This document shows positions 5,913-35,169 of a stretch of 64,000 nt of DNA, piece after piece (the stretch's first letter is position 1; each line of letters opens with the position of its first letter). Source of the stretch: a virus; the IMG/VR virus record IMGVR_UViG_3300027736_000027, positions 1 through 64,000 of that record, one strand, 5' to 3'. The notes under the pieces are model-generated. The model saw nothing but the letters and a program-made list of their open reading frames with translations, did not search any database and had not been told where the DNA came from. Position numbers and translations under genes: made by a program.

Positions 5913-5917
5913 ATCAT

Positions 5918-6550: not shown

Positions 6551-6555
6551 ATCAT

Positions 6556-7302: not shown

Positions 7303-7323
7303 TAGGGTTATTTATTCAGAATA

Positions 7324-8169: not shown

Positions 8170-8174
8170 ATCAG

Positions 8175-8915: not shown

Positions 8916-8920
8916 TAAGG

Positions 8921-9973
8921 TTATTTATAAATTTTGGCTCCAACCTTTAGGTCCTCGGGTAACTCGGCTAAGCTTGGACACGATCGTATGTATAGACTTG
9001 CAGAAACCTCTAGACCAGCAGGTAAACTCTTTAGTGAGGTACAGCAGTCGAGGTCTAAGTTGCCGTCGACCTTGAATCCAACCGGCAAACTTTCTAGGGC
9101 CGTACAGCCTTCTAAGTAGACTCCGCTTTCGACCTTTAAGTCAGCCGGTAAACTCTTTATACCGGTACAGCCTTCCATGTCAAGTTGACCGCCAACCACT
9201 AGGCCAGCAGGTAGACTCTCCAAGCCCGTACACCTTTTTATGTCTAGACCTCCGCCAATCTTTAAGCCATCAGGTAAACTCCTTAAGCCCGTACAGCCCC
9301 TTAAGTCTAATTCTCCCAGCACCTCTAAATCTGCCGGTATACTCTCTAAGCTCGTACAGCCATTTAGCTCTAATCGGCCATTGATCTTTAAGCCAGCAGG
9401 TAAACTCTTTAGTAGAGTACAGTAGTCTAGGATTAGGCTGCCAACCCCGTTATATTTAATAATACGCTGTTCAGCATCTCTAAGGATCTTTAGCTCGGCT
9501 AATTCCTGGCTTGACACAACTCCTATTTGGTGCAGCTCCTGAGCACTGGCAAGATCCTCAACGGATACTGTGTTCCAATTTTCATATAGTTTCGGCCCGC
9601 CTATTATTCGGCCGGCTACCTTTAGGTCTTGAGGTAAACTCTTTAAACCAGTACAGCCGTATAAGTATAGGTCACCGCCAACCTCTAGGCCAGCCGGTAA
9701 ACTCTTTAAACCCGTACAGGCAGTTAAGCCTAAATTTGCTCCAACTTTTAGGCCCTGAGGTAAACCAGTTAACAGAATAGTGTAACTTAAGTTTAGGTCC
9801 CCAACTCCTTTATAGTCGAGTATCCGTTTTGAACTGATTTTTAAATCATTTAGATCGGCTAATTCCTGATCAGAAATAACCCCTATCTTGTGCAGTTTCC
9901 TAGTCTCAGCAAAGTCCTTATCAGATAGAGGGTTCCAGTCCTCAAATTTTTCGAATAGTTTAATATACTTCAT
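8921..9973 (-). CDS. Leucine-rich repeat protein, fusion of two array units (3+8 repeats)
   Basis: Internal second leader/cap KLYENWNTVSVEDLASAQELHQIGVVS. Confidence 0.9.
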   Translation of the reverse strand: MKYIKLFEKFEDWNPLSDKDFAETRKLHKIGVISDQELADLNDLKISSKRILDYKGVGDLNLSYTILLTGLPQGLKVGANLGLTACTGLKSLPAGLEVGGDLYLYGCTGLKSLPQDLKVAGRIIGGPKLYENWNTVSVEDLASAQELHQIGVVSSQELAELKILRDAEQRIIKYNGVGSLILDYCTLLKSLPAGLKINGRLELNGCTSLESIPADLEVLGELDLRGCTGLRSLPDGLKIGGGLDIKRCTGLESLPAGLVVGGQLDMEGCTGIKSLPADLKVESGVYLEGCTALESLPVGFKVDGNLDLDCCTSLKSLPAGLEVSASLYIRSCPSLAELPEDLKVGAKIYK

Positions 9974-9978
9974 ATCAT

Positions 9979-10725
9979 TTATCTATAAATTTGGCCGCCG
10001 ACCTTTAAGTCAGTCGGTAAACTCTCTAGGCGGGTACCACCCAAGAGTAAGTCTCTTTTAACCACTAGCCCAGCCGGCAAACTTGTTAAGCCGGTACAAC
10101 CATATAAGTCTAAGTTTCCGCCAACCTTTAGGCCAGCAGGTAAACTCCTTAAACCTGTGCAGTTTGCTAAGGTTAGGTTGCCAACCGCTATGTCAGCCGG
10201 TACACTCTCTAAGCGGGTACAGCCATCTAGGCTTAAGGTGTTGCCAACCTCTAGGCCAGCAGATAAATTCTTTAGGCTGGTACAGCCGTATAGGCTTAAG
10301 TTTCGGTCAACGATTAATCCAGTAGGTAAACTCTCTAGGGACGTACAGCCAATTAAGGTTAAGTCTCTGACCCTTAAGTTAGCCGGTATACTGGTTAGGG
10401 CCGTACAGCCACCTAATGCTAAGTATCCAATAACCTGTAGATCAGCAGGTAGACTCCTTAAGCCTGTACACTTATTTAGGTTTAACATGCCGTTAACCTT
10501 TAAGCCAGCCGGTAAACTCTTTAGTAGAGTACAGCTGTCTAGGTTTAGGTTGCCAACTCCAGGGTATTGAAGAATTTCCCGTTCAACATGCCTAAGTCTT
10601 CTGAGCTCGCTCAATTCCTTGTCGGACACAACTCCTATTTCATGAAGATCCTGAACATCTGAATAGGCCTCATCGGATACTGTTTTCCAGTCTTCAAATT
10701 TTTCATATAGTTTAATATACTTCAT
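9979..10725 (-). CDS. Leucine-rich repeat protein (9 repeats)
   Basis: Same architecture. Confidence 0.9.
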   Translation of the reverse strand: MKYIKLYEKFEDWKTVSDEAYSDVQDLHEIGVVSDKELSELRRLRHVEREILQYPGVGNLNLDSCTLLKSLPAGLKVNGMLNLNKCTGLRSLPADLQVIGYLALGGCTALTSIPANLRVRDLTLIGCTSLESLPTGLIVDRNLSLYGCTSLKNLSAGLEVGNTLSLDGCTRLESVPADIAVGNLTLANCTGLRSLPAGLKVGGNLDLYGCTGLTSLPAGLVVKRDLLLGGTRLESLPTDLKVGGQIYR

Positions 10726-10730
10726 ATACT

Positions 10731-11234
10731 TTATCTATAAATTCTACGGCCGACCTTTATGTCTTGAGGTAACTCGCCTAAGCTCGTACAGCGGAATAGG
10801 TTTAAGTCGCCGTCAACCACTAGCCCAGCCGGTAAACTTGTTAGCGAGGTACACCCGTTTAAGAATAGGTCTCTGCCAACGATTAAGCCCTGAGGTAGAC
10901 TCTTTAAGCGGGTACAGCCATATAGGCTTAAGCTGCCGCTAACAGTTAACTCATCAGGTAAACTCTCTAAGCTGTTACACCAATTTAGGTTTAAGTCTCC
11001 GCCAACCTCTAGGCCAGCCGGTAAACTTTTTAGCAGGGTGGAGTCAGCTAGGTCTAGGCTGCCAACTCCAGAGTAGTGCAGAATCGCTTGTTCAGCCCTC
11101 ATCAGTCTCTTTATCTCTCTAAATTCCTGATCTGAAACGACTCCTATTCCATGAAGCTCCTGAGCACTGGCAAGGTCCTCAACCGATACGGTTTTCCAGT
11201 CCTCAAATTTTTCATATAGTTTAATGTATTTCAT
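10731..11234 (-). CDS. Leucine-rich repeat protein (5 repeats)
   Basis: Same architecture. Confidence 0.9.
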   Translation of the reverse strand: MKYIKLYEKFEDWKTVSVEDLASAQELHGIGVVSDQEFREIKRLMRAEQAILHYSGVGSLDLADSTLLKSLPAGLEVGGDLNLNWCNSLESLPDELTVSGSLSLYGCTRLKSLPQGLIVGRDLFLNGCTSLTSLPAGLVVDGDLNLFRCTSLGELPQDIKVGRRIYR

Positions 11235-11241
11235 TATCTTT

Positions 11242-11820
11242 CTATCTTAAAATTTGGCCGCCTACCCTTAGGTCTTGAGGTAACTCGGCTAGGGAGGTAC
11301 AGTCTCTTAAATTTAAGTCGCCCATAACCACTAGTCCAGCAGGTAAACTCGTTAGTGAGGTACAGCCGCCTAGCGATAAAAAGCCTAACACTTTTAACCC
11401 AGCCGGTAGACTCCTTAAGCCCGTACACCCGTTTGCATAAAAGTCTCCCATCACTTTGAATCCAGCAGGTAAACTCCTTAAGCCTGTGCAGTCAACAATA
11501 TTTAAACCTCCTCCAGGTTTTAAACCAGCAGGTAAACTCTCTAATCCAGTACAGCCGCTTAGAGTTAAGTAGCCAGTAACGGTTAAGTCGGCAGGTAAAT
11601 GTGTTAGACCCGTGCAGCCTCTTAAATTAGCGGACCCATTAACCTTTAATCCAGCGGGTAAACTCTTTAGCAGGGTACAGCCATCTAAGTTTAAGAAGCT
11701 CGACCCGAATTCAACACAGTTACGAAGTTGTTCCTCAGCCGCTTTTAGTTTTTTAAGCTCTGCACCTTCCACAGCTTCGGTAATTAAGTTAAATGAACGA
11801 TATGGGGTTAGGTACTTCAT
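11242..11820 (-). CDS. Leucine-rich repeat protein (7 repeats)
   Basis: MKYLTPYRSFNLITE leader; same repeats. Confidence 0.9.
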   Translation of the reverse strand: MKYLTPYRSFNLITEAVEGAELKKLKAAEEQLRNCVEFGSSFLNLDGCTLLKSLPAGLKVNGSANLRGCTGLTHLPADLTVTGYLTLSGCTGLESLPAGLKPGGGLNIVDCTGLRSLPAGFKVMGDFYANGCTGLRSLPAGLKVLGFLSLGGCTSLTSLPAGLVVMGDLNLRDCTSLAELPQDLRVGGQILR

Positions 11821-13007: not shown

Positions 13008-13249
13008 ACTAGGGAGTACCTGGTACCTGTATAGAACAGACTCTAACCGGACCCGGCCCAGTGGGACTAGGGAGTCCCGGCCAGCCCGGACCAGCCGGCC
13101 CAGGAGCAATCTGCCCAGGTGGGACTAGGGAGTAAACCGGACCCTTGCCCCGGCCACCGGACCCCAACCTGACCAGGTGGGACTAGGGAGTACCCCGGCC
13201 GGGCTCTGTCCTGTGGGTACCAACCCGGCTTGCTCAAAGACTAGGGAGT
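13008..13249 (+). repeat. Five ACTAGGGAGT motifs at exact 58-bp period with dissimilar GC-rich spacers
   Basis: Motif starts at 13008, 13066, 13124, 13182, 13240; first four extend to GGGACTAGGGAGT. Confidence 0.95.
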
Positions 13250-13389
13250 ACGGTGGCCCTCGACTCCGCGGCTCTACCGGATTCCCAGGGGTCTCGAGAG
13301 GGCCCGGCAGTTGGACACTAGTAGCAGGCTGCGGGACACGGGCAGGCCAGGCTTCCCGACAGGTAGCCGAGGCCCAGATAGATAAAACC

Positions 13390-14025
13390 ATGGAAGAAGA
13401 AGAAATAGGGTCCCTGAAGCCTTTTCCGTCAGGGGAGTTGATGTATAAGAAGGATGCAGCCAAGTTTGCTGGGGTCTCGTTGAAGACACTGGAGGGTTAT
13501 GTAGCTAAGGGTGTAATAAACAAGTGGAAGAATATTGTAAACGGCCGGACCTACTATGACAAGCAGGAGCTCTTGAAGATGATAGGCAGTCGCTTGCCGC
13601 AGAAGAGGCTCGTGATCGCCTACTGCCGGGCAGCACCGTTCCCGGATCGAGGAGCGGCCGGGGTTTCGGTACTGGCCAGGTTACAGGCACAGACGGACCG
13701 GGTACTCGGATATTGTACCGCAGCTGGGGTCCGGGTTGACGAGATAATCCAAGATACGGGTAAGGCTGGTAGCCTAGCTGGCCGATCAGGTCTCGATAGG
13801 CTCTTTGAGACCGTGCTTCGCAAGCAGGTAAGTATGGTTATAGTTGAGACTCCGGACCGGCTGGCCAGGTTTGCAGGTGCCGAGATTCTAGAGAGATTCC
13901 TGACCTGGCACGGTGTTGAACTGCATATAATACAGAAAGGATTACATCTAGAAGAGTACAGGGAAGAATTAAAAGAGGATCTATCTTATCTTATATTAGA
14001 GTCAAGAGCCCTGATTGGGGATTAA
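13390..14025 (+). CDS. IS607-family TnpA-like serine recombinase (MerR-like HTH + resolvase domain), catalytic Ser apparently replaced by Ala
   Basis: KKDAAKFAGVSLKTLEGY HTH; IAYCRAA in place of YARVS; GRSGLDRL; ETPDRLARF; EELKEDL. Start re-called to ATG 13390; no tnpB adjacent. Confidence 0.85.
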   Translation: MEEEEIGSLKPFPSGELMYKKDAAKFAGVSLKTLEGYVAKGVINKWKNIVNGRTYYDKQELLKMIGSRLPQKRLVIAYCRAAPFPDRGAAGVSVLARLQAQTDRVLGYCTAAGVRVDEIIQDTGKAGSLAGRSGLDRLFETVLRKQVSMVIVETPDRLARFAGAEILERFLTWHGVELHIIQKGLHLEEYREELKEDLSYLILESRALIGD

Positions 14026-14051
14026 CCGGATTTAGGAAATATTCTTTTTAT

Positions 14052-14504
14052 TTATAAAAATTTCAAACATTTAACTTTACCGTCAGTCGTTGTGTATATT
14101 ACAAAGTTTACACCATTACCATCATAAAATCCAATACTCGGACTTTCAGGATTATAATTATTATCAGCTGGAGTTTTCTTTATTTCCGTAAACATATTTT
14201 TTGCAGTCTCACTAATAATGTCACCCGCTACCATAAATTGTGAGTTAATTATACCTGGAACGCCAGTACAATCCCATACATAATTAACACCATTAAACGT
14301 ACCTCCAAAACTGGAGGCGTTATAGTTTCCCTTAAATTGTTCGGATGACATCATTGCAGGTGTTACATTTTTTATTCCCTCAGATGCAACTTTATTTATA
14401 ATAGGTTTTATATTTTGGTTTACGGCCTGGTCGGTTGGCTCCGCTGGCATGATAGCAGCTTCAAATCCTTCATTCACAAACTGTTCAAATAATTTTAATT
14501 TCAT
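14052..14504 (-). CDS. Hypothetical protein with capsid-targeting-like leader
   Basis: MKLKLFEQFVNE. Confidence 0.75.
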   Translation of the reverse strand: MKLKLFEQFVNEGFEAAIMPAEPTDQAVNQNIKPIINKVASEGIKNVTPAMMSSEQFKGNYNASSFGGTFNGVNYVWDCTGVPGIINSQFMVAGDIISETAKNMFTEIKKTPADNNYNPESPSIGFYDGNGVNFVIYTTTDGKVKCLKFL

Positions 14505-14525
14505 TTCTATATTTGTTTTTTTTAT

Positions 14526-14903
14526 TTATTTTTGGAAAATTTGTGGATTTAACCGGCCGTACTCTCTGAGTATTACGGCAGCCTGACTGTTAGCCTCGTT
14601 CTCAATTGTAGATCCATCTGCTCCATCCAGTGTCTGTCCACTGTCGCGCTGGGCATGGTGTACCAATTCATGAGCCAAGGTTCGGTACCAGTCTGCTGTT
14701 AAACGATCACCTCGCAAGACCCTGATCTCTCCGGTACGGGGATTAAATGCTCCCATTGACTTTACGGACTCGGCCTCGGCATGGTCATCAGTTACAATAA
14801 TAACTGGTTTAGATGTCCACTGTAGTTTACTCCAGCAAAATTGACAAAACTGTTCAACTTCTGTTGTTGCCTGCCACTCACTTGACTCCTTGATATATTT
14901 CAT
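14526..14903 (-). CDS. HExxH zinc metallopeptidase-like protein
   Basis: TLAHELVHHAQ...ENEANSQA. Confidence 0.75.
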   Translation of the reverse strand: MKYIKESSEWQATTEVEQFCQFCWSKLQWTSKPVIIVTDDHAEAESVKSMGAFNPRTGEIRVLRGDRLTADWYRTLAHELVHHAQRDSGQTLDGADGSTIENEANSQAAVILREYGRLNPQIFQK

Positions 14904-15109
14904 ATAGATTAAATATTTAGCGTGCCACCTGGCTGACGTCTGCTGTAACTTATTTATGTTATTTATATCCCATAAAAACCCGTTTTGTTTATAAATTCAC
15001 ATAGCGAACCTGGTCCGGAGTTCTCCCCAGCTCGAGCGGAGGTCCAGAACCCATGGGGGTCGGCACGGGCCCGGGGCTGCAAACTGTAGTCCACTAGCGG
15101 ATAGAGCCC

Positions 15110-15135
15110 AAAAAAGGGAACCATTACGGTTCCCT
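15110..15135 (-). terminator. Intrinsic terminator
   Basis: AGGGAACC-5nt-GGTTCCCT stem with U-tract on minus strand. Confidence 0.8.
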
Positions 15136-15164
15136 CTTCATTGCTAACCAATTAACCAATTAAC

Positions 15165-16280
15165 CTAGATAGCAGCTAAGCTTGCGTGTTCAAGGTCCCA
15201 GCTCTTTGCAAAAAGATTTCCACCTTCTACTTTAAACTTTTTAGGGGCTTGAAAATTAAATGTTGTTGCATGACTTCCAATCCATGTTAACTCGTTAACC
15301 AGATCCCAAACGCTTGAGTCAGTTTTGATAAACTTTTTCTGAGCATCGGTTAAGAACTGTGGATTGTGGCCATTTTTAAAAATTCGTTTTGATGTGATAT
15401 CAAACTCTGGAAAGAACTGTTGTTGAGCGGCTCTGATATAGTGCGACTCGACATTTACATCCTCATCATGAATTTGACCAATTACAGAGTTCATTACTCT
15501 TTCAAGTTCTCCATAGCTTGCCTTTGTTCGGATTGCGCCTTCAAGACGGGTTTCAAAAGTTCGTGGTACAAAACCGGCTTTAGACCAACCTGTCATACTC
15601 TCTAATAGTTTACGAAAGGCATCTTGACCTTGGCCAAATTCAAAAGCCGTATTTAAGTTACGGGCGACCGCACCATTTGCACAACTTAGTCTCAAGAAGA
15701 AGTCATCCACTCTGGAATTTGTTGCTGAATTTACCAGTGATACTCCAAATCTGAATACCTCGTCCTTACCGATTTTATCGAAACCTACTTGACTGCCATG
15801 GATAAGGTTTATACTTACACCTCCACCACTATTGTCAATTGACTCAACATGCATATCAGGTACTTCATTAAGAATAAGCCCAGCCGTATCGAATAGGGTT
15901 TCATTTGATAGTCTGTGATACTTATCAGCCTTTACAATATTGGTTACTTCTTTTGCATTACCATCACCGATTAACAAAAACTCTTTGTCACCGTCACGAG
16001 TCTCTGAATAAGACTTTACGGCCTGCAATAATTTTGTCTGTACTGAATGATCGGCATTCTTGTCCATTCGATTTAATAAACTTGTCTGTAAGTTTACAAC
16101 TTGGCCAAGTCTGTTAAAAAATTTGTTTGAGACTGGGATCTTTGAGTCCCCAATCAGGATATTACCTGTCTTTAAGGAGTTATCATCTATCTTGATATCA
16201 GATAACTTTACCTTTTTAATTAGTGGATCTTTTCCGCTACTGTCGGCTTTCGCCTTGTCAAATTGCTCTTGTGAAATCAT
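15165..16280 (-). CDS. DUF932-like protein
   Basis: FGVSLVNS...FFLRLSCANGAV and SVWDLVNELTW motifs. Confidence 0.65.
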   Translation of the reverse strand: MISQEQFDKAKADSSGKDPLIKKVKLSDIKIDDNSLKTGNILIGDSKIPVSNKFFNRLGQVVNLQTSLLNRMDKNADHSVQTKLLQAVKSYSETRDGDKEFLLIGDGNAKEVTNIVKADKYHRLSNETLFDTAGLILNEVPDMHVESIDNSGGGVSINLIHGSQVGFDKIGKDEVFRFGVSLVNSATNSRVDDFFLRLSCANGAVARNLNTAFEFGQGQDAFRKLLESMTGWSKAGFVPRTFETRLEGAIRTKASYGELERVMNSVIGQIHDEDVNVESHYIRAAQQQFFPEFDITSKRIFKNGHNPQFLTDAQKKFIKTDSSVWDLVNELTWIGSHATTFNFQAPKKFKVEGGNLFAKSWDLEHASLAAI

Positions 16281-16328
16281 GGTTATCTTGGTTTTTTTGG
16301 TTTATATTAATATACTATTTAGTTAAAC

Positions 16329-17429
16329 TTATTGGCTGATGATAGGCTCAGAGTCAGAGTCAGTATCCGGTTCTTCAACCTCAGCTGGTCTGCCAACTGA
16401 CATAAAAAGATCAGTAAACTTGGACTCAAGTTCAGAACGCTTGTCCCTCTCTTGGTCGGCCAATTCGGCAACTTGGGTCTCTTGTCTCCATGAAGTTGCA
16501 TCCCAACGTACTTCACCTTCTACTAGGGAGTAGTATAGTCGCTTACCGATTAGGCTGCCTCCACGACGGTTCTTCGAGAACTCTACATATCTTCGACCGG
16601 CATCATCAAACTTAATCTCCATCATTGATGTTGTTGCATGTTTAAGGTAGGTACTTCCAACATATTGACCGCCTTTAGTCATGTGCTGAATTGCAAAGAT
16701 TGTTTTGCCTTTCTTATCAGCGGCTTCAATAATTAAGTTAGTTAACCAGGTCATGGCTCTGGTACTTTTCCAGCCAAGGATATCTGCTAATTTTACAATA
16801 ATATCTTGATGCGAGTCAATTAAGATAACATCATAGTCACCATTAATTGTGTCCTCCAATATCTTATCAAAGCGACCCATAACATAGTCCATCACGAGTA
16901 AGGTTGGCACATTTGCAATAATAGGGGTTTTTTGATAATAGAAGTAGAGGTCATTACGTGTCATCTCACTAGAGATATAGAGTATCTTTGCCTCAGGCTG
17001 AACTCGCTTAATCTTAGCCAAGATATCAAGTGTGACTGTTGATTTACCAACACCACTTTCGCCGATTACAATATTTGCAGTACCTGAATAGATACCACCG
17101 TCTTCCGTATGGTCAGAAAATAACTGGTCAATAAGATCGCCAGATTTCCAGGCAGTAAATGGCGGAAACTCCATATTGCCAATTTCAATTACTTCAGCCA
17201 CCATTTCGGTTGGTATAACTGGTTGAACCGGTACTAGGGAGTTCGGCTCGGTGCCGTCTTTTAACTTCTTTACAACTCCATTAAAGAGACCATAACTTAC
17301 CCCGGTCTCGGTTGAGGTTGTCATATACTGAGTATATAACTGTTGAACACTGCGGTCATGTGGTACTTGACCTTCATAAGCTTCTGTAAAGAATGCTCGT
17401 ACATCTAATTCTTTTTTGCCGATTTGCAT
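16329..17429 (-). CDS. RadA/Sms-like RecA-family ATPase (no Zn finger or Lon-like domain)
   Basis: Walker A GESGVGKST, LYISSEM, Walker B LIDS, HMTKGGQYVG, KNRRG (cf. RadA KNRFG). Confidence 0.85.
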   Translation of the reverse strand: MQIGKKELDVRAFFTEAYEGQVPHDRSVQQLYTQYMTTSTETGVSYGLFNGVVKKLKDGTEPNSLVPVQPVIPTEMVAEVIEIGNMEFPPFTAWKSGDLIDQLFSDHTEDGGIYSGTANIVIGESGVGKSTVTLDILAKIKRVQPEAKILYISSEMTRNDLYFYYQKTPIIANVPTLLVMDYVMGRFDKILEDTINGDYDVILIDSHQDIIVKLADILGWKSTRAMTWLTNLIIEAADKKGKTIFAIQHMTKGGQYVGSTYLKHATTSMMEIKFDDAGRRYVEFSKNRRGGSLIGKRLYYSLVEGEVRWDATSWRQETQVAELADQERDKRSELESKFTDLFMSVGRPAEVEEPDTDSDSEPIISQ

Positions 17430-17549
17430 AGGTTTTCTGTTTTGGTTAATTGGTTTATACTATATTATTATACTACAGTTTGCCACAATTGGCTTAAGTA
17501 CTTCAGTTTTTATTATTTATTCGACATCAGTACTAGGGAGTCCAACCGG

Positions 17550-17765
17550 CTAGAAGTCTTGGCCTAATATATCGGTTACTTCAAAGGTAAACGTGTCAAA
17601 GTTGTCGTTTAACATGTCATAGTCAAAGCCGAAATCCTCGCCGGCCATGTAGTCAATAATTGCCTGTTCAGCATGGTCCAGCGTTTCGTTCATTGAATGA
17701 ATTACCAATGGGGACTCTAGTGTATCGTCAATAGACGTAATCACTGTACAAAATAATCTTTTCAT
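17550..17765 (-). CDS. Hypothetical early protein
   Basis: 71 aa acidic ORF behind promoter cassette. Confidence 0.7.
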   Translation of the reverse strand: MKRLFCTVITSIDDTLESPLVIHSMNETLDHAEQAIIDYMAGEDFGFDYDMLNDNFDTFTFEVTDILGQDF

Positions 17766-17838
17766 AATCTATAGGGGTTAGTTGGTTAGAGTAAATATAA
17801 GTATAATTTTTGACATCTAAAAATAAAGTTATTAACAA

Positions 17839-18096
17839 TTATCGGACCTCACCGCTAGTAATAATTCCTTCAAAGGTTGTGAGCTTCTTAAACTCTTTAG
17901 TTGGAAAATAGGCTCTGCCGTCTTCTAAATCAAAGTTTCCATTAAAGTTTTCAAGAATTGCTTCAACATTATCTTTATCTGACTCTATTACTAAGAACCT
18001 GGAACCTGGAACAGGAACATCGTCGTCACCTAATAATTTTTCAATAAGATCGCTGTCATCAGTGATCTGAAATACTGAGAATTTTTCTATTTTCAT
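17839..18096 (-). CDS. Hypothetical early protein
   Basis: 85 aa behind promoter cassette. Confidence 0.7.
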   Translation of the reverse strand: MKIEKFSVFQITDDSDLIEKLLGDDDVPVPGSRFLVIESDKDNVEAILENFNGNFDLEDGRAYFPTKEFKKLTTFEGIITSGEVR

Positions 18097-18158
18097 AATC
18101 TATAGGGGTTAATTGATTGGTTAAATATAAGTATAATTTTTGACACCTGACAATTTAA

Positions 18159-18455
18159 TTAAATTAAATCATCAAAATAAAGAGTAAGGGCCCGGTTCTG
18201 GCCGGTTGAGATGTTTATATTATTACTGCCGATTTCGTATCTATTACCTTTTTTAATTAGGCGCTTTGCTCGGGTAAGTCGGGACTCAGTCAGCTGGTCA
18301 TTTACTGGGCTGCGAGGCGCTACATGATACGATGTGGAAGTATATTCTCCACCGCAACCACATCTGCAATGGGCATCTTTGCCGATATAGGTTTGTGATA
18401 TTTGACTTAAGTTAAAGCCTAAAAATTGGTCAACTGTGATTAGCTCAGGTTTCAT
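18159..18455 (-). CDS. Hypothetical early protein with CRCGC motif
   Basis: YIGKDAHCRCGCGGEY. Confidence 0.7.
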   Translation of the reverse strand: MKPELITVDQFLGFNLSQISQTYIGKDAHCRCGCGGEYTSTSYHVAPRSPVNDQLTESRLTRAKRLIKKGNRYEIGSNNINISTGQNRALTLYFDDLI

Positions 18456-18680
18456 TTGATATAGGGGTTAATTGGTTAGAGTAAATATACCAAATTTATT
18501 TGACACCTGACAATTTATTTTCATAAAGTTATTAACAATTTGGCTGTTAACAATTCCCTAAATATGTCGTAGGTCGGAGTCTACCTCCCGCTCCTGGTTT
18601 GGACCGTCCCGTCTAGATTAGTTGACAAGGTAAATATAAGTATAATATTTGACACCTGACAATTTATTTTAGAGAAGTTA

Positions 18681-18908
18681 TTAACAATCTTCTTGCACAG
18701 TAAAATTTACCGGGCCAACTGTTACTCGTTTGCCTATGAGGTCGTCTATACAATATCTCTCATCTGCCGGTCCGCGAAAGATTTGATCGTCTGTCCAATC
18801 GTCCGAATTAAGTAAGAGTTTAAGAGTTTCCCGAGTTGAATACGTCGATTGTCTTCCCCAATTGTCTACGGTCTCGACACAGTCGATAATTTCTATTGAT
18901 GTTTGCAT
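18681..18908 (-). CDS. Hypothetical early protein
   Basis: 75 aa; stop lies inside downstream cassette box. Confidence 0.7.
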   Translation of the reverse strand: MQTSIEIIDCVETVDNWGRQSTYSTRETLKLLLNSDDWTDDQIFRGPADERYCIDDLIGKRVTVGPVNFTVQEDC

Positions 18909-18928
18909 AATTTAATTTTTTAAAAGGG

Positions 18929-28336: not shown

Positions 28337-28600
28337 TTATAAGACCTTTTTTAATTTAATTCCTTTATTAAATTTAGCGGTATCTAATAAATCGTAAGTA
28401 GTATATACTTTACCATTTATATTTAAAAAAGCCAATCCATTGTCTTCGTCGTATTCAACAACTTTAACAACATCTCCTTTCTTAAGCTTGTATATTTTAC
28501 CTCCAATTTCAGCATCAACTTCTAACGACTGTGTCATTACATAAGTCGACATTGCTGGCTTAATTTTAGATTCTTTAAGTGGTGTATATTGTTTGGGCAT
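28337..28600 (-). CDS. Hypothetical protein (possible SH3-like beta barrel)
   Basis: LKKGDVVKVVEYD. Confidence 0.65.
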   Translation of the reverse strand: MPKQYTPLKESKIKPAMSTYVMTQSLEVDAEIGGKIYKLKKGDVVKVVEYDEDNGLAFLNINGKVYTTYDLLDTAKFNKGIKLKKVL

Positions 28601-28611
28601 GGTTAAAGTTT

Positions 28612-28917
28612 TTAGGAGTTGGTTAAGTATGGACCTGGACTAAATTCTCTGCTCTCGGTTTCGTAGTAGTTGACGGCAGACGTCTTTAATTTCGCTTTAT
28701 CTTTTCGCAATGACTCACCAAGGCTCTGCACCGCACTGGTAATATCTGAGCCGCGCATGACATCATAGCCGTCTCGATGCTCGTTGTGGGTATTTTCATA
28801 GGTGACCGCTGCTTGTAGCTTTGCATAGTTGCGCTTCTTTAGCAGTTTTTGCCAAAAGGCTAGGTCTGCTGCTTGGATCGCTAGACCCTGTTTTACTGTG
28901 AATTCTTTTTTTGACAT
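28612..28917 (-). CDS. Hypothetical protein
   Basis: 101 aa. Confidence 0.65.
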   Translation of the reverse strand: MSKKEFTVKQGLAIQAADLAFWQKLLKKRNYAKLQAAVTYENTHNEHRDGYDVMRGSDITSAVQSLGESLRKDKAKLKTSAVNYYETESREFSPGPYLTNS

Positions 28918-28968
28918 AGTTGATCAGGTTTAGGTATTGGTTAAGGTTAATATACTATATACTCGGGA

Positions 28969-29154
28969 CTAGGGAGTCGTCTGGTTATTGAGTTTAGAGA
29001 CTCGTTGCCAAAACTCGTTAAATCCGGGTTGGTTGTCGGGTATCACTGAGCTCTGTAGCCGTGGACCAGTGCCGTACTCTAAGTTTACTGGGGTTCCAGC
29101 CGTCTCGACCTGGCCGAGTAGGCTCTTAATAAAGGTTGCAATCTGCTTCTTCAT
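28969..29154 (-). CDS. Hypothetical protein
   Basis: 61 aa; stop codon lies inside an ACTAGGGAGT site. Confidence 0.65.
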   Translation of the reverse strand: MKKQIATFIKSLLGQVETAGTPVNLEYGTGPRLQSSVIPDNQPGFNEFWQRVSKLNNQTTP

Positions 29155-29156
29155 GG

Positions 29157-29372
29157 TTATCGGGTTTTTGGGATAAGATGGATTAATGAGTTAACCAGTA
29201 ATTGTGGATCCTCGTCATAGCGGCCGTGCACCCAGGAATTTACATAGCTCTTTAGTTCTTTTGAGTTGCGGGTAGTTATACCTGAAGCCTCGGCTGCCTG
29301 GACTGTCTCGGCTGGGATCTTGCACCAGGTCTGCATTTCCAGAAGCATTGATGATAGTGTGGTAGTTGGCAT
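29157..29372 (-). CDS. Hypothetical early protein
   Basis: Start re-called to MPTTTL after cassette. Confidence 0.65.
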   Translation of the reverse strand: MPTTTLSSMLLEMQTWCKIPAETVQAAEASGITTRNSKELKSYVNSWVHGRYDEDPQLLVNSLIHLIPKTR

Positions 29373-29460
29373 CGTTAGTTGGGTTAGTTGGTTGGTTAAA
29401 TATAAGTATAATTTTTGACACAAAAAAATAAAGTTATTAACAGTTCGGGACTAGGGAGAC

Positions 29461-29622
29461 CTACCTGTTAAATGCCTTGGCCTCGGCTATCATTTCTTTT
29501 GCCTGTTCTTTTACAGATTTAATATCTGCATGTGGAGCTCGTGCCTTAAAATAGCTAACGACTTCGGATACTTTCATTTTGCCTGACTCGGCAATCATTT
29601 CTCTAATTTGATTAATTGTCAT
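29461..29622 (-). CDS. Small hypothetical protein (53 aa)
   Basis: Read manually: MTINQIREMIAESGKMKVSEVVSYFKARAP...; behind cassette. Confidence 0.65.
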   Translation of the reverse strand: MTINQIREMIAESGKMKVSEVVSYFKARAPHADIKSVKEQAKEMIAEAKAFNR

Positions 29623-29719
29623 GGTTAATTGGGTCTAAGGGGTTAGTTAAATATAAGTATAATTTTTGACACGGAAAAATAAAGTTATAGACAATATCAC
29701 TAGGGAGTAGTTGCGGACC

Positions 29720-30232
29720 CTATACCCCGATTGGGGTAAAGGTCTCGGCAAAGTCTACGGTTGTCATTGCAGCTTTTACTCGCTCCAGACAAACCGGTCC
29801 CATTGCAGTATTGATACTTTCAGGATGGGTTAATGGCAAGCCACATTTGCAGCAGGTCCCATTATGGAATAGACCAACTCGGGTTCCTAAAATAGCTGGG
29901 TTCTTGATGGCGGCTACCACCCAGCCCAGAGCCTGTGCCAGTCGCGAGTTTGGTGTAACACCTTTACCCAACTTGTAGGTTAAGGACTCGGAAAAAACAG
30001 TACCGGCAAACTGATGTCCGCTACGTCCGTCAGCCAAGAGGGAGATATTGACGTAGTAAATGGGCAGCATTTTCTTGCGATCCTGCTTGTCGCGTAACTG
30101 CTTGATCCGCACGTTCATGTGGGTAAGTTGCTCATTATTGCGGAAGGTGATATTGGCTCTTCCGGCAAGTGCCAAGGTCGGTAGCGACTTTGGATTAAGG
30201 TTTGGGCGAGCTGCCCGGATTTGGGTCGACAT
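29720..30232 (-). CDS. DUF6011-like Zn-binding protein
   Basis: HNGTCCKCGLPLTHPESINTAMGPVC. Confidence 0.75.
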   Translation of the reverse strand: MSTQIRAARPNLNPKSLPTLALAGRANITFRNNEQLTHMNVRIKQLRDKQDRKKMLPIYYVNISLLADGRSGHQFAGTVFSESLTYKLGKGVTPNSRLAQALGWVVAAIKNPAILGTRVGLFHNGTCCKCGLPLTHPESINTAMGPVCLERVKAAMTTVDFAETFTPIGV

Positions 30233-30384
30233 AGGTAGTTGAGTTAATTGGTTGGTTAAATATAAGCATTATATTTGACACTAAAAAATTTATTTTCATA
30301 AAGTTATTAACAAAGTTATAAACAGGCCAGACTGTAGTGCAGGTCGGAGTCTACCCTCTGCGATCCCGGCCAGGAATCGAACCT

Positions 30385-30407
30385 AAAAAAACCGGGCGAA
30401 CCCGGTT
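30385..30407 (-). terminator. Intrinsic terminator
   Basis: AACCGGG-TTCG-CCCGGT + T-run on minus strand (UUCG loop). Confidence 0.85.
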
Positions 30408-30425
30408 CTGATAGTGGGTTGAGGT

Positions 30426-30569
30426 TTAGAACTCGAACGCGGCCGTTGAGGTATTGCTACCCGCTACCGCATTTATGATTACGACCGCGATTCCAATAAT
30501 TGCGATTCCAGCTAGACACACGGTCCAGGTTTGCAGTGCACGTAGTGCGATCATTTCAGTTTTGCTCAT
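30426..30569 (-). CDS. Small membrane protein (47 aa)
   Basis: Read manually: MSKTEMIALRALQTWTVCLAGIAIIGIAVVIINAVAG...; between cassette and terminator. Confidence 0.65.
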   Translation of the reverse strand: MSKTEMIALRALQTWTVCLAGIAIIGIAVVIINAVAGSNTSTAAFEF

Positions 30570-30649
30570 GGTTGATTTGGTTAATTGGTTTATATAGAGT
30601 AAATATAAGCAATTAGTTTGAACTAAAAAAATTTATTTTCAAGAAGTTA

Positions 30650-30880
30650 TTAACAATCCTGGCCCAACCAACTGCGTAACTTTTCTCCGAATTCCTGGTC
30701 ATTTGGATACTTAACCATGATCTCGACAACTCGGTCTAAACTCCGGGCCGGTCGGAAGCGGGCCGTTTGATAACGTTGGATTGGCCAAGGCTCTGCAGTG
30801 GATATAAAGTTTCTGGCCTGCTTGCCGAATTCAGAATCATTGTGCTGGTCTCGAGAAAGTTGTTGTAATGTGGGTAACAT
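30650..30880 (-). CDS. Hypothetical protein with duplicated NDxEFG motif
   Basis: Start re-called to MLPTLQQ; HNDSEFGKQAR / PNDQEFGEKLR. Confidence 0.65.
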   Translation of the reverse strand: MLPTLQQLSRDQHNDSEFGKQARNFISTAEPWPIQRYQTARFRPARSLDRVVEIMVKYPNDQEFGEKLRSWLGQDC

Positions 30881-30917
30881 ATGTTTTATATTTCTTTTTT
30901 TATTATTATTATTATAG

Positions 30918-31445
30918 CTATTCAAAAAATACCAGTCCATGCTGGGCTCCAAGCCGGAAGTGCACGGTCAAGACCCCCATTATCTCTAAAAAATCTTCGG
31001 CATCCGGTTGTAGTACTCCGCCCAGTGCCTGAGCCTGGTAATCAGAAAGTAGATGAGCCTTAAATATTGGAGCCAGTCTTTCTAATTCTCGAGCCAAGAC
31101 ACCGCAGGTTCGGGTACTAAATCCGCAGCCTGAATCGGTATGGTCCAGTAGTGGAGCAAGTTTATGTGGCTGCCCGGCCAGGGTTGCCGAACACAGTTCT
31201 GCACAGTACCTGCGCCAGCGGTGCCAAACACTATAGCTGCAGAGCCTGGCTCTTGACTCCTCGGAACCAGGTGTCTGGAACCAGGTTCCGGGTTTTAAAC
31301 CGTGCCAGTGCCTGGCTGAGTGCTCATCCAGGTCAAGTATCTCAACCAGCTGGCCGACTCCAATCTCTTCAACCAGCCTGAGCGCCGCCATTCGTTTATC
31401 TCGTGCCTCTATGCAGTTGCTCACTGCCCATATATCAAGTCCCAT
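30918..31445 (-). CDS. Hypothetical protein
   Basis: MGLDI...CSYSVWHRWR...LLDHTDSG; GC-rich. Confidence 0.7.
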   Translation of the reverse strand: MGLDIWAVSNCIEARDKRMAALRLVEEIGVGQLVEILDLDEHSARHWHGLKPGTWFQTPGSEESRARLCSYSVWHRWRRYCAELCSATLAGQPHKLAPLLDHTDSGCGFSTRTCGVLARELERLAPIFKAHLLSDYQAQALGGVLQPDAEDFLEIMGVLTVHFRLGAQHGLVFFE

Positions 31446-31468
31446 TTCTTATCGCTTTTTTTGATCCC

Positions 31469-31497
31469 AAAAAAGGGCCGTGCCTACAGGCCGGCCC
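31469..31497 (-). terminator. Putative intrinsic terminator
   Basis: GGGCCG...CGGCCC stem with U-tract on minus strand. Confidence 0.65.
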
Positions 31498-31524
31498 AAT
31501 CTATTAAGGTGGTGTCTGACCGGA

Positions 31525-31761
31525 TTATCCAATCAGGCTTGAGTTACGGATACGTCCGCGAGTCATATCGTATGCTCTGTTTAAGATACGACTGTTTGTG
31601 CCTAGGCCAGCTAAGACTTCGCTTGTCCAGTTTGGACTGAAACCTGTTGCTGTTGCTACTCGGCTTACATCACCGTGACGTTTTCTCGAAGCGACTACTG
31701 CTAACTTTGCACCTGTGCTTAACTTGCGGTATTTCATACCGATTTTGCTTGCATTTTTCAT
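31525..31761 (-). CDS. Small basic helix-turn-helix protein
   Basis: GDVSRVATATGFSPNWTSEVLAG (Cro/Xre-like). Confidence 0.65.
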   Translation of the reverse strand: MKNASKIGMKYRKLSTGAKLAVVASRKRHGDVSRVATATGFSPNWTSEVLAGLGTNSRILNRAYDMTRGRIRNSSLIG

Positions 31762-31795
31762 TGTATATATTTTATTTTGTTTAATTATAAGGTAC

Positions 31796-32068
31796 CTAAC
31801 CTTTATCCGATTTGGCCTGCCCGGTCGGGGCGAGACTTCTGGGAATCAATAACTGAGCCAGTAGGATAAGTCCCCAGGCCTGGGCAACACTGATCTGAAT
31901 TCCACCGAATATTCCCGGTACGAGCCAGTTCCATAACCATTTTACTGGCCAGGCCAGGATAATACTTGCAACAAAGGCAACTGTTACTGTCAAGACTAGA
32001 GTAGATAGTGTTTGAGCCAGCCCGGTCTTACGGCCTGCTGAGCCTCCTAATTTAGGTAGATTTTTCAT
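31796..32068 (-). CDS. Membrane protein
   Basis: WLWNWLVPGIFG..ISVAQAWGL. Confidence 0.7.
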   Translation of the reverse strand: MKNLPKLGGSAGRKTGLAQTLSTLVLTVTVAFVASIILAWPVKWLWNWLVPGIFGGIQISVAQAWGLILLAQLLIPRSLAPTGQAKSDKG

Positions 32069-32401: not shown

Positions 32402-32467
32402 ACCTATATTATATCCTACCTGCAGACTAAGTTTTAGCCCTACTCTCGACTGGCCAGCCTGCAGCCA

Positions 32468-32668
32468 GCCTACCTGGCCTGCCTGGATAGAGCCTACCTG
32501 GCCTGCCTGCCGGCAGCCTGTACCGGCTCCTGGCCAGTACCCCTGGCTAGCCCTGGCTGCTGCCTGGATAGAGCCCGGCCTGCTGCCAGGGTCACTCCTG
32601 GAGTCAATACCAGGCAGCCCTGGGACCACTCCTGGAGTCAGCCAGGGTCACTCCGGGAGGTGCCCCGG
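32468..32668. repeat. GC-rich short repeats with CCNGG phased at ~11 bp
   Basis: CCNGG at 32529, 542, 552, 563, 574, 586, 597, 610, 619, 631, 642, 653, 664; duplicated GCCTACCTGGCCTGCCTG and CACTCCTGGAGTCA. Confidence 0.85.
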
Positions 32669-32740
32669 TAGTGAACTATGCCCCTATAAAAAAAGTCTCC
32701 AGGAGCAGAACTCATGACTTTTTTATATTTTACCTGGTGC

Positions 32741-32955
32741 CCCCAGGTCCAGGAACCGTCTCAGGAGCAATTTGCCCTTTTATCGGGCTCGTGGATCTTC
32801 CCCCAGGTACGGGGACTCTTCCGGGTTAATTTGCCCTTTTATCTGGTTCGGGGATCTCCCCAGGTACGGGGCCTCTGCCTGGCTAATTTGTCCTAAGTGC
32901 TGGTTCCTGGATTCCCCCAGGTCCAGGGCCGGTTTGGAACTAAATTTAGCCAGGT
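32741..32955 (+). repeat. Four imperfect tandem units of 57-60 bp
   Basis: CCCCAGGT(A/C)C at 32741, 32801, 32858, 32915; AATTT(G/A) element at 32769, 32828, 32885, 32943. Confidence 0.85.
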
Positions 32956-32964
32956 CTGTTGCTG

Positions 32965-32972
32965 TATAAATA
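32965..32972 (+). promoter_or_regulatory. T4-type late promoter TATAAATA (representative)
   Basis: Also (T/G)ATAAATA on + at 36037, 36602, 42454, 49599, 54224, 61878 and on - at 4887, 8922, 12797, 42436, 53412, 61856. Confidence 0.7.
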
Positions 32973-32998
32973 AATTTATAAAAAAGTAGAAAAAAGTT

Positions 32999-34076: not shown

Positions 34077-34089
34077 AAATAAATACAAT

Positions 34090-34560: not shown

Positions 34561-34573
34561 AATAAATACAATT

Positions 34574-35155: not shown

Positions 35156-35169
35156 AATAAAGGATAATT

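What the first reader, a model, noticed from the sequence alone, without database searches (positions are those of the whole stretch)
13008..29708. Candidate new system: catalytically dead IS607 transposase plus 13 same-strand ACTAGGGAGT sites across the early module
Seen: the asymmetric 10-mer occurs at 13008, 13066, 13124, 13182 and 13240 (upstream of the TnpA-like gene) and at 16522, 17233, 17532, 24113, 24361, 28968, 29450 (9/10) and 29699. All are on the + strand and inside the early module; by eye I found no copy outside it or on the other strand. Three lie inside coding sequence (RadA-like gene twice, sigma gene once), and several abut promoters (29450, 29699, 24361, 17532, 28968). Known: IS607 TnpA binds short repeated motifs through its HTH and oligomerises to bridge DNA; mycobacteriophage L5 uses oriented 'stoperator' sites to silence transcription. 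Inference: a domesticated, non-cutting TnpA nucleates on the array and silences, loops or condenses the early region. Alternatives are T5/phiKMV-like programmed nick sites or polar signals for DNA entry.
Basis: partly seen in the sequence, partly recalled or inferred. Interest (0 to 1): 0.92.

Follow-up and report, generated by a model that had tools for sequence, protein, structure and literature searches.

The report
Dead transposase with one-way DNA sites
An uncultured T4-like jumbo phage and a whole clade of its relatives keep a transposase-derived DNA-binding protein that lacks its cutting serine, next to a strictly one-directional 10-base DNA word found only in the adjoining gene block. 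The word is most likely the protein's docking site, a reuse of a jumping-gene enzyme that I could not find described in the literature.

Summary
ACTAGGGAGT occurs 12 times exactly and once at 9/10, all on the + strand, all in 13008-29708. There is no other copy on either strand of the 110,950-bp record.

It is not a quirk of this phage. In 22 related loci, ACTA[G/C]GGAGT occurs 174 times on the strand of the TnpA-like gene and never on the other. In a complete 270-kb relative, all 10 copies lie within 8.2 kb beside that gene.

Sites inside the RadA-like and sigma genes are frozen at the nucleotide level while neighbouring codons drift. Array spacing is quantised at 57 or 58 bp.

The 211-aa protein has the IS607 TnpA architecture and fold, but no serine is conserved at the nucleophile position. 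It is single-copy, has no tnpB, and carries a T4-late-type ATAAATAA just before its ATG.

Best reading (0.55): the word is the docking site of a domesticated, non-cutting TnpA that marks or regulates the early/replication block. The exact effect (silencing, bridging or insulation) is not settled. A strict stoperator logic is weakened, because site polarity follows the TnpA gene and not the local gene direction.

This scan has already flagged the same system on other DNA (e1-5955733, e1-5955747, e1-5343116, e1-5990500). No publication was found.

The parts
13008..13249 (+). Array of five exact ACTAGGGAGT copies at exactly 58-bp period. Spacers are GC-rich and not conserved. Four copies are preceded by GGG.
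   Evidence: The 57/58-bp spacing recurs in relatives (57 bp 19 times, 58 bp 8 times). No RNA structure signal on either strand (z +1.59 and +0.10).
13377..13389 (+). T4-late-type promoter-like element (GATAGATAAAACC here; G/T-ATAAATAAC in relatives) directly before the ATG of the TnpA-like gene.
   Evidence: ATAAATAA is invariant in seven aligned relatives. The same element precedes 12 non-early genes in this genome. In G001 it precedes 28 of 281 ORFs outside the block and 0 of 27 inside it. The phage is T4-like (gp23).
13390..14025 (+). 211-aa IS607 TnpA-like protein: N-terminal HTH_17/MerR-type DNA-binding domain plus a resolvase catalytic domain. It reads Y-C-R-A-A-P where canonical enzymes read Y-A-R-V-S-S, followed by a Pro/Gly-rich insertion.
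   Evidence: Pfam PF00239 3e-12 and PF12728. phrog_6620 transposase 2e-26. PDB 3lhf and 6dgc at about 1e-9. The AF2 model matches 6dgc, 3lhk, 3ilx and 3lhf at TM about 0.7. Alignments. Single copy, no TnpB.
16522..16531 (+). Site inside the RadA-like gene (antisense). It encodes Y-S-L-V on the minus strand.
   Evidence: It sits at alignment column 358 in 10 lineages with invariant TAC TCC CTA, while the adjacent K, R, L and Y codons vary synonymously.
17233..17242 (+). Second site inside the RadA-like gene, in a variable linker. It encodes N/D-S-L-V.
   Evidence: It sits at alignment column 69 in seven lineages, embedded in an indel-rich and otherwise unconserved stretch.
17532..17541 (+). Intergenic site, 9 nt past the stop of gene 17550-17765 and upstream of the RadA-like gene's promoter region.
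   Evidence: The orthologous site is present in L019.
24113..24122 (+). Site inside the sigma-factor gene (antisense), encoding N-S-L-V.
   Evidence: Same position and frame in L010 and L018, with synonymous variation around it. Sigma70 r2/r4 domains.
24361..24370 (+). Intergenic site upstream of the sigma gene's promoter cassette.
28968..28977 (+). Intergenic site whose TAG is the stop codon of gene 28969-29154.
29450..29459 (+). 9/10 copy (ACTAGGGAGA), 8 nt upstream of a promoter cassette on the minus strand.
29699..29708 (+). Intergenic site 6 nt upstream of a promoter cassette on the minus strand.
16329..17429 (-). RadA/DnaB/KaiC-like P-loop ATPase. It is always syntenic with the TnpA-like gene and always carries one to three sites.
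23536..24258 (-). Phage sigma-70-family factor with one internal and one upstream site.
32594..32705 (.). Possible partner element at the far boundary of the block: a cluster of palindromes ACTCC-N-GGAG(T) sharing the GGAGT half-site with the 10-mer, inside a GC-rich, CCWGG-rich divergent intergenic region.
   Evidence: An equivalent cluster lies 2.7-6 kb beyond the last 10-mer in G001, G002 and G003. The link to the system is an inference.

Best explanation
ACTA[G/C]GGAGT is a selected cis-acting DNA site. Most likely it is the docking site of the adjacent serine-less IS607 TnpA-like protein. A former transposon left end (direct repeats next to tnpA) and its transposase appear to have been domesticated by an ancestor of this T4-like jumbo-phage clade.

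Proposed mechanism:
- The protein, probably made from a late-type promoter, nucleates through its N-terminal HTH on the 57/58-bp-phased array beside its own gene.
- It also binds the dispersed co-oriented sites in and between the genes of the neighbouring early/replication block, notably the RadA-like ATPase gene, the sigma gene and several promoter-proximal gaps.
- There it keeps the non-catalytic activities known for IS607 TnpA: cooperative binding, spreading and capture of a second DNA segment. It thereby marks, insulates or shuts down that block.

Shown here: the motif statistics, polarity, confinement, conservation, nucleotide-level selection and quantised spacing; the protein's family and fold; the lack of a conserved nucleophile; single copy; perfect co-occurrence.

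Inferred: that this protein is the binder, its late timing, and the regulatory or architectural outcome.
For: 1. Non-random and confined. There are 12+1 copies on one strand and none elsewhere in 110,950 bp. In the complete 270-kb relative G001, all 10 copies lie in 8.2 kb; in G002, all 12 lie in 11 kb.
2. Clade-wide. Across 22 distinct loci (445 kb) there are 174 copies on the TnpA strand and 0 on the other, against about 0.66 expected per strand. This extends to relatives with only about 30% protein identity, which use ACTACGGAGT.
3. Selection on DNA rather than protein. In the RadA-like gene, TAC TCC CTA is invariant in 10 lineages while flanking codons vary synonymously. Two further sites sit in an unconserved, indel-rich linker. 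The sigma-gene site behaves the same way.
4. Physical link to the gene. An array or site cluster lies 130-510 bp upstream of the gene in the lineages examined, or within and just downstream of the gene in the L024/L025/L061/L062 lineages. Nearly all relatives have another site inside the gene at the L-G-S codons.
5. Quantised 57/58-bp spacing with unconserved spacers fits a protein-DNA architecture, and the array has no RNA structure signal.
6. The protein is an IS607-type TnpA by domains, sequence and fold. Such proteins bind short direct repeats next to tnpA, spread and bridge DNA without needing catalysis (PMC6188088).
7. No serine is conserved between beta-1 and helix A. The P0027/L017 lineage has none there, yet keeps the full site system.
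8. The gene is single-copy and syntenic and there is no TnpB (with a valid control), so it is not an active insertion sequence.
9. The palindromes ACTCC-N-GGAGT at the far boundary share the GGAGT half-site, as expected for a DNA-binding protein and not for an RNA signal.
Against: - Binding was not and cannot be tested here.
- The RadA-like ATPase and the sigma factor co-occur with the motif just as perfectly as TnpA does, so co-occurrence alone does not single out TnpA.
- I found no residue in the HTH recognition helix that tracks the G/C variant of the motif, and both variants coexist within genomes.
- A simple DNA-binding protein does not obviously need 174:0 co-orientation, so some polar process remains unexplained.
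- Known IS607 end motifs are spaced about 10-11 bp apart, not 57-58 bp (PMC6188088).
- In many family members a serine sits two residues before helix A (S92 here), so residual chemistry in some lineages cannot be strictly excluded.
Confidence: 0.55

Rival explanations
1. Stoperator-like polar roadblock in the strict sense. The protein binds the asymmetric sites and stops RNA polymerase only when it approaches from one side, silencing early transcription and blocking read-through into the neighbouring late genes.
For: In the window all sites have one orientation relative to the minus-strand early genes. Intergenic sites sit between a gene end or terminator and the next promoter. The five-copy array lies exactly where early read-through would enter the antisense of the TnpA gene and the late-type genes beyond it. 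L5 stoperators are 13-mer asymmetric sites whose function depends on orientation (PMC9283540).
Against: In L027 a site lies 23 nt upstream of a late-type promoter of a gene on the TnpA strand and still has the global polarity. A paralogue on the other strand has the site in the opposite relative orientation. Polarity therefore follows the TnpA gene and not local transcription. There is no homology to L5 gp71, and the sites are confined to one block rather than spread genome-wide.
Confidence: 0.2
2. The word is read by another factor of the block rather than by TnpA. One candidate is an oriented loading or guidance signal for the RadA/DnaB-like ATPase (KOPS- or Chi-like polar signal). Another is an element read by the phage sigma factor.
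For: Strict polarity is typical of signals read by translocating motors (my own knowledge of FtsK-KOPS and RecBCD-Chi). The ATPase and sigma genes always co-occur with the motif and carry sites themselves.
Against: The array always flanks or overlaps the TnpA-like gene, not the ATPase or sigma gene. Polar motor signals are normally spread genome-wide with skew, not confined to 3% of the genome. No second conserved element lies at a fixed distance, as a sigma promoter would need. No T7-type RNA polymerase was found, though that search had no positive control.
Confidence: 0.12
3. RNA-level signal. The word works in transcripts, either as ACUCCSUAGU in early-strand mRNAs (a nuclease or RNA-binding-protein target, by analogy with T4 RegB) or through antisense pairing between plus-strand array RNA and early mRNAs.
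For: 174:0 strand specificity is what an RNA signal predicts. In the window every dispersed copy lies in the sense strand of an early transcription unit.
Against: - The exact 57/58-bp phasing has no RNA rationale, and the array shows no structure.
- The late-type promoter lies downstream of the array, so the array is probably not in the TnpA mRNA.
- Copies in the TnpA gene, and the L027 site upstream of a plus-strand gene, would be on the wrong strand for an early-mRNA signal.
- The boundary sites are palindromic.
- No Rfam family matches.
Confidence: 0.08
4. Programmed single-strand nick sites (T5/phiKMV-like), possibly serving in a T4-like phage as fixed clamp-loading points that activate nearby late promoters.
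For: The sites are on one strand only. In the distant clade many sites lie 1-25 nt upstream of T4-late-type ATAAATAA elements. T4 late transcription is activated from nicks, which is established knowledge recalled from memory.
Against: No nickase is linked to the word, and the adjacent protein lacks a conserved nucleophile. Known phage nick sites are spread along the genome rather than confined to one block. Sites also occur deep inside coding sequence, far from any late promoter. Read-level data could not be obtained.
Confidence: 0.05
5. Replication-origin iterons or a partition centromere, with the TnpA-derived protein acting as initiator or centromere binder (a special case of TnpA binding).
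For: A phased direct-repeat array sits beside the gene of its presumed binder and next to a replicative-type ATPase. Further copies are scattered nearby, as with plasmid control iterons.
Against: The spacers are GC-rich, which opposes melting. Spacing of 57-58 bp is unlike iterons. GC skew gives no origin signal at the array in the complete relative. The gene looks late, not early. The distant clade has no regular array.
Confidence: 0.08

Closest known systems
IS607-family TnpA serine transposases and their subterminal direct-repeat motifs (IS607, IS1535, ISC1926; PDB 6dgc, 6dgb, 3ilx, 3lhf, 3lhk; PMC6188088)
   Same: The domain order is the same, with an N-terminal MerR/excisionase-type HTH and a C-terminal resolvase core, and the fold is the same. 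Short, directly repeated motifs lie next to the gene. The documented abilities to nucleate on the motifs, spread and capture a second DNA do not require catalysis.
   Different: No conserved nucleophile serine, and a roughly 10-residue insertion after the Y-x-R. The gene is single-copy, syntenic and vertically conserved, with no tnpB and no sign of mobility. Motifs are spaced 57-58 bp apart instead of about 10-11 bp, and extra copies are scattered over 8-17 kb, including inside other genes.
Cluster A mycobacteriophage (L5) repressor gp71 with operators and stoperators (PMC9283540)
   Same: There are many copies of one asymmetric 10-13-bp site in intergenic gaps and genes, with a striking common polarity, bound (there) by one phage HTH protein that stops transcription.
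   Different: The protein is unrelated. L5 sites are spread over the whole genome and flip with the direction of transcription. Here they are confined to one block and keep one polarity even next to a gene on the other strand. L5 has no phased array, and it is temperate, whereas this is a T4-like phage.
Iteron/Rep and centromere/ParB-type repeat arrays of plasmids and phages (from general knowledge)
   Same: A regularly phased direct-repeat array sits beside the gene of a DNA-binding protein, with additional scattered copies.
   Different: No Rep or ParB homology. The spacers are GC-rich, the period is 57-58 bp, the promoter is late-type, and all copies share one strict polarity.
Polar motor-guiding words (FtsK KOPS, RecBCD Chi; from general knowledge)
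   Same: A short asymmetric word with extreme strand bias.
   Different: Those words are genome-wide and skewed rather than exclusive. Here every copy lies in about 3% of the genome, and a phased array sits next to an HTH gene.

Membership tests
IS607-family TnpA (serine transposase) | N-terminal HTH DNA-binding domain followed by a resolvase-type catalytic domain | tested here: met
   PF12728 at residues 21-65 and PF00239 at 97-187. phrog_6620. The AF2 model matches 6dgc, 3lhk, 3ilx and 3lhf with TM 0.69-0.76 on the target.
IS607-family TnpA (serine transposase) | Catalytic serine nucleophile in the Y-x-R-V-S motif at the end of beta-1 | tested here: not met
   The window reads Y-C-R-A-A-P plus an insertion. 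In alignments with Helicobacter IS607 TnpA and ISCbt4 OrfA, the canonical S-S aligns to A-G. No serine column is conserved in the family, and P0027 has no serine in that segment.
IS607-family TnpA (serine transposase) | Part of a mobile element: several or variable copies, variable location, usually with tnpB | tested here: not met
   One copy in G000 and one in the complete G001. The position relative to the RadA-like gene is the same in all relatives. No TnpB domain in three genomes, while the control rang in 8 of 14 known genomes.
IS607-family TnpA (serine transposase) | Short directly repeated motifs adjacent to tnpA that the protein binds | tested here: inconclusive
   Direct repeats are present upstream of the gene in the lineages examined, or within and just downstream of it in L024/L025/L061/L062. 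Binding was not testable, and the spacing differs from the 10-11 bp of IS1535 (PMC6188088).
L5-type stoperator system | Many copies of one asymmetric site whose orientation follows the direction of transcription | tested here: not met
   One polarity throughout (174:0). In L027 the site before a plus-strand gene keeps the global polarity. Only this one informative case was found.
L5-type stoperator system | Binder is a gp71-type immunity repressor of a temperate phage; sites are genome-wide | tested here: not met
   The candidate binder is a resolvase-fold protein. Sites are confined to 8-17 kb. The phage is T4-like.
T5/phiKMV-type programmed nick sites | Physical single-strand interruptions at the consensus in virion DNA | not testable with these tools

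The most novel reading that the evidence does not exclude
A transposase that has lost its chemistry but kept its paired-end synapsis now acts as a phage domain organiser. Made late, it would polymerise on the phased direct array at one end of the early/replication block. It would then capture the co-oriented internal sites and the GGAGT palindromes at the other end, folding the whole 14-19-kb block into one polar nucleoprotein structure. That structure would switch the block off or shield it from replication, recombination or packaging. In effect this would be a transposon-end complex turned into a chromatin-like switch in a T4-like jumbo phage.
Probability: 0.2. Interest if true: 0.85.

Novelty: new variant of a known kind. 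Interest (0 to 1): 0.7.

Why it matters
Domesticated transposases are well known in eukaryotes but rare and poorly documented in phages. I found no report of an IS607-type serine transposase kept without its nucleophile as a core gene.

Here the domestication comes with its cis sites still readable. One 10-base word is under nucleotide-level selection even inside other genes, has absolute polarity, and is confined to about 3% of a 270-kb genome, across phages whose proteins have diverged to 30% identity.

That makes a directly testable protein-site pair: one small soluble protein and one 10-mer. It could expose a new way for large lytic phages to control or fold their early/replication module. 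It could also be used to study the non-catalytic synapsis step of IS607 transposition in isolation. The unexplained absolute polarity is itself a puzzle worth solving.

Tried and rejected
- Homodimer prediction of the protein: no verdict, so it is not used as evidence either way.
- Array as structured RNA: folding of both strands is no better than shuffles. No Rfam family matches except a sub-threshold SorX hit at 31470-31545. No tRNA was found.
- Origin of replication by GC skew in the complete relative: uninformative, because skew follows gene strand.
- T7-type RNA polymerase as reader of a T7-promoter-like ...TAGGGAG...: no hit, but the control did not ring either, so this is uninformative.
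- Covariation between the HTH recognition helix and the G/C variant at motif position 5: none convincing, and both variants coexist in several genomes, so position 5 is simply S.
- Pattern scan of 185,579 prokaryote genomes for two motifs 46-49 bp apart. It found only a 254-kb contig of the same phage clade binned in a Bacteroidetes MAG (a weak host hint) and four unrelated chance or tandem-repeat hits.
- Cultured or annotated phage relatives: none. The best hits in 50,697 phage records are ordinary IS607 copies at about 30% identity.
- Literature search for the 10-mer: it only hits papers printing the Widom 601 nucleosome sequence, which happens to contain it. Searches for domesticated or inactive IS607 or serine recombinases in phages found nothing relevant.
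- One reverse-oriented copy exists in relative G005, at the 3' end of a small gene before a terminator. I treat it as a single exception.

Full report
**Observation.** The 10-mer ACTAGGGAGT occurs at 13008, 13066, 13124, 13182, 13240, 16522, 17233, 17532, 24113, 24361, 28968 and 29699. A 9/10 copy lies at 29450. All are on the + strand. Dinucleotide-preserving shuffles give a mean of 3.2 matches at up to one mismatch, and none of 100 reaches 13. The window is the first 64 kb of a 110,950-bp virus record. That record holds no other exact copy on either strand and only one unrelated one-mismatch hit. The first five copies are exactly 58 bp apart, and the spacers between them are GC-rich and dissimilar. 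Every plausible gene from 14052 to 32068 is on the minus strand. The word therefore reads ACTCCCTAGT on the coding strand of that block. The only plus-strand gene is the TnpA-like gene at 13390-14025, which converges on the block.

**The protein.** The 211-aa product has an HTH_17/MerR-type domain (residues 21-65) and a resolvase domain (residues 97-187). Its best PHROG is a transposase family. It matches the solved catalytic domains of IS607-type TnpA proteins by sequence (3lhf, 6dgc; E about 1e-9). An AlphaFold2 model (mean pLDDT 78) matches 6dgc, 3lhk, 3ilx and 3lhf first.

Canonical enzymes read Y-A-R-V-S-S, as in Helicobacter IS607 TnpA and Clostridium ISCbt4 OrfA. The window protein reads Y-C-R-A-A-P followed by a Pro/Gly-rich insertion of about ten residues. 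More than 60 homologues at 48-98% identity show the same change. No serine column between beta-1 and helix A is conserved. The lineage of P0027/L017 has no serine there at all, yet keeps the whole site system. A serine two residues before helix A (S92 here) is present in about two thirds of members. I read it as a helix cap, because it is replaced by G or A in others, but residual chemistry in some lineages cannot be excluded. The gene is single-copy in this genome and in a complete relative. No TnpB domain is present, and that search had a valid positive control.

**Relatives.** Searching IMG/VR with the protein family gave 23 loci. Searching with the neighbouring RadA-like ATPase gave 29. 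Several contigs are 253-271 kb and CheckV-complete. They carry a T4-type major capsid gene. Four assemblies of one phage start at different points, which suggests a circularly permuted genome.
- Every locus that extends far enough has the TnpA-like gene, the RadA-like gene on the opposite strand, and the word on the TnpA strand only.
- Relatives at 43% protein identity and above mostly use ACTAGGGAGT.
- One 48% lineage (L023) and all lineages at about 30% identity use ACTACGGAGT. Some genomes mix both, so position 5 is S.
- The tally over 22 distinct loci (445 kb) is 174 copies on the TnpA strand and 0 on the other, against about 0.66 expected per strand.
- In the complete 270-kb genome G001, all 10 copies lie in 8.2 kb. 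In the 253-kb G002, all 12 lie in 11 kb.
- A single reverse copy exists in G005.

**Selection acts on the DNA.** In a codon alignment of the RadA-like gene the sites occupy three fixed columns, always in the frame xAC-TCC-STA-GTx. At column 358, ten lineages keep TAC TCC CTA without change, while the preceding K, R, L and Y codons vary synonymously. The ACTACGGAGT-type phages have lost this site and read Y-Y-K-L or Y-Y-T-L. The sites at columns 69 and 95 lie in an indel-rich, otherwise unconserved linker, where only the motif-encoded D/H-S-L/V-V persists. The sigma-gene site shows the same pattern in three lineages. Most relatives also have a site inside the TnpA gene, encoding the L-G-S of the conserved LLGSRL. 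The window has lost that one (GATAGGCAGT at 13581-13590).

**Architecture.** Among adjacent site pairs, 57 bp occurs 19 times, 58 bp 8 times and 56 bp once. No shorter spacing occurs. The 57/58-bp pairs persist even in lineages where they lie inside or downstream of the gene (L024, L061). The about-30% clade has no regular array. The core extends weakly to [G/T][G/T]-ACTASGGAGT-[A/C]C, and no second conserved element lies within 20 bp on either side. The array is not a structured RNA on either strand.

The gene and its upstream region are GC-rich in all lineages: 0.48-0.56 for the gene against 0.37-0.46 for the locus. Seen on the early-gene strand, intergenic sites sit after stop codons or intrinsic terminators and 1-36 nt before promoter elements. 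Twice the word forms part of a terminator stem.

**Timing (inference).** ATAAATAA lies 5-14 nt before the ATG of the TnpA-like gene and is invariant in seven aligned lineages. The same G/T-ATAAATAAC element precedes 12 genes outside the block here. In G001 it precedes 28 of 281 ORFs outside the block and 0 of 27 inside it. It matches the T4 late-promoter consensus TATAAATA, which I recall from established knowledge. The block's own genes use a different cassette (GTTAATAAC ... TGTCAAA ... CTTATATTTA). The protein is therefore probably made later than the genes that carry its sites.

**Far boundary.** At the other end of the minus-strand block (32594-32705) there is a GC-rich divergent region. 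It holds three to four copies of the palindrome ACTCC-N-GGAG(T), which shares the GGAGT half-site with the 10-mer. An equivalent cluster lies 2.7-6 kb beyond the last 10-mer in G001, G002 and G003. This is a lead, not a demonstrated part of the system. It does fit a DNA-binding protein better than an RNA signal.

**Mechanism.** IS607-family ends carry short directly repeated motifs. TnpA dimers bind them cooperatively through the N-terminal domain, spread onto non-specific DNA and capture a second DNA in a paired-end complex. All of this happens in a chemically inactive conformation (PMC6188088). The arrangement here is direct repeats beside the gene and a protein with that fold but no conserved nucleophile. 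That is what one expects of a domesticated left end plus transposase that kept binding and bridging and lost cutting.

I put 0.55 on the word being this protein's docking site. Within that reading, the outcome is open:
- The strict stoperator version (orientation-dependent block of RNA polymerase; PMC9283540) fits the window. It conflicts with L027, where a site upstream of a gene on the TnpA strand keeps the global polarity.
- An origin or centromere role lacks support from composition, skew and timing.
- The absolute polarity remains unexplained. It may reflect parallel synapsis with the array or an unidentified polar process.

**Rivals outside the TnpA reading:**
- Another reader of the word, such as the RadA-like motor or sigma.
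- An RNA-level signal.
- Programmed nicks.
Each explains the polarity, but not the phased array beside the HTH gene, nor the confinement.

**Comparison and novelty.** The protein meets the architecture and fold criteria of IS607 TnpA. It fails the nucleophile and mobility criteria, so it is a derivative and not a working member. I found no paper describing such a protein or this word and no cultured relative. Earlier agents of this scan reached similar readings on other genomes of the clade. These are not independent evidence, but they show the system is recurrent. I checked their main claims here on this window.

- the codon-level test;
- the 57/58-bp quantisation across lineages;
- the S at position 5;
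- the late-type promoter contrast;
- the counter-example to transcription-linked polarity;
- the far-boundary palindromes.

The host is unknown. One 254-kb contig of the clade is binned in a Bacteroidetes MAG, which is a weak hint only.

Noticed in passing
window 32594-32705, within the GC-rich region 32420-32998: Cluster of palindromes ACTCC-N-GGAG(T) (GGTCACTCCTGGAGTCA twice, plus variants) at the divergent boundary of the minus-strand block. It shares the GGAGT half-site with the 10-mer. Equivalent clusters occur in G001 (244476-244575), G002 (188140-188205) and G003 (67506-67561).
   Followed up: partly
window 13332-13358: Hairpin between the array and the TnpA start (CGGGA...TCCCG). The stem changes by compensatory substitutions in relatives (GGGACA/TGTCCC in L015, GTAGACA/TGTCTAC in L023). 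About 50 nt further upstream of the hairpin (window about 13286-13302) lies a conserved element, GGGTCT(C/A)GAG(A/G)GGGCC. Function unknown.
   Followed up: partly
window 17550-30650, minus strand: About 17 near-identical promoter cassettes (GTTAATAAC ... AAAATAAATTTTT ... GTGTCAAA ... CTTATATTTA), roughly one per small gene. They are distinct from the G/T-ATAAATAAC element used by genes outside the block.
   Followed up: partly
window 30340-30400, minus strand: A sequence resembling the 3' half of a tRNA (GGTTCGATTCC T-loop followed by an acceptor-like stem) sits upstream of gene 29720-30232. ARAGORN calls no tRNA in the window. A related AGGGTAGACTCCGACCT box recurs upstream of 18159-18455.
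   Followed up: no
window 33603-35949; L027 7900-9604; L030 7879-9578: Family of small paralogous genes with a shared N-terminus (MKHIKLFEGF...). In the window they lie just beyond the far boundary. In the distant clade they flank the TnpA-like gene, each preceded by a motif copy and a late-type ATAAATAA.
   Followed up: no
L019 11324; L024 2881: In two relatives the word forms the stem and loop of an intrinsic terminator on the early strand (GGGACTCC-CTAGT-GGAGTCCC followed by a T run).
   Followed up: no
window 13581-13590: The window's own TnpA gene has lost the internal motif copy that nearly all relatives keep at the L-G-S codons (GATAGGCAGT here, encoding M-I-G-S).
   Followed up: yes
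window 4932-11820: Run of minus-strand genes built from 63-bp (21-aa) tandem repeats (TRF rows at 6007-11027).
   Followed up: no
window 15165-16280: Conserved 371-aa protein between the TnpA-like and RadA-like genes, with no Pfam or PHROG match. Its homologue in L027 is 391 aa.
   Followed up: partly
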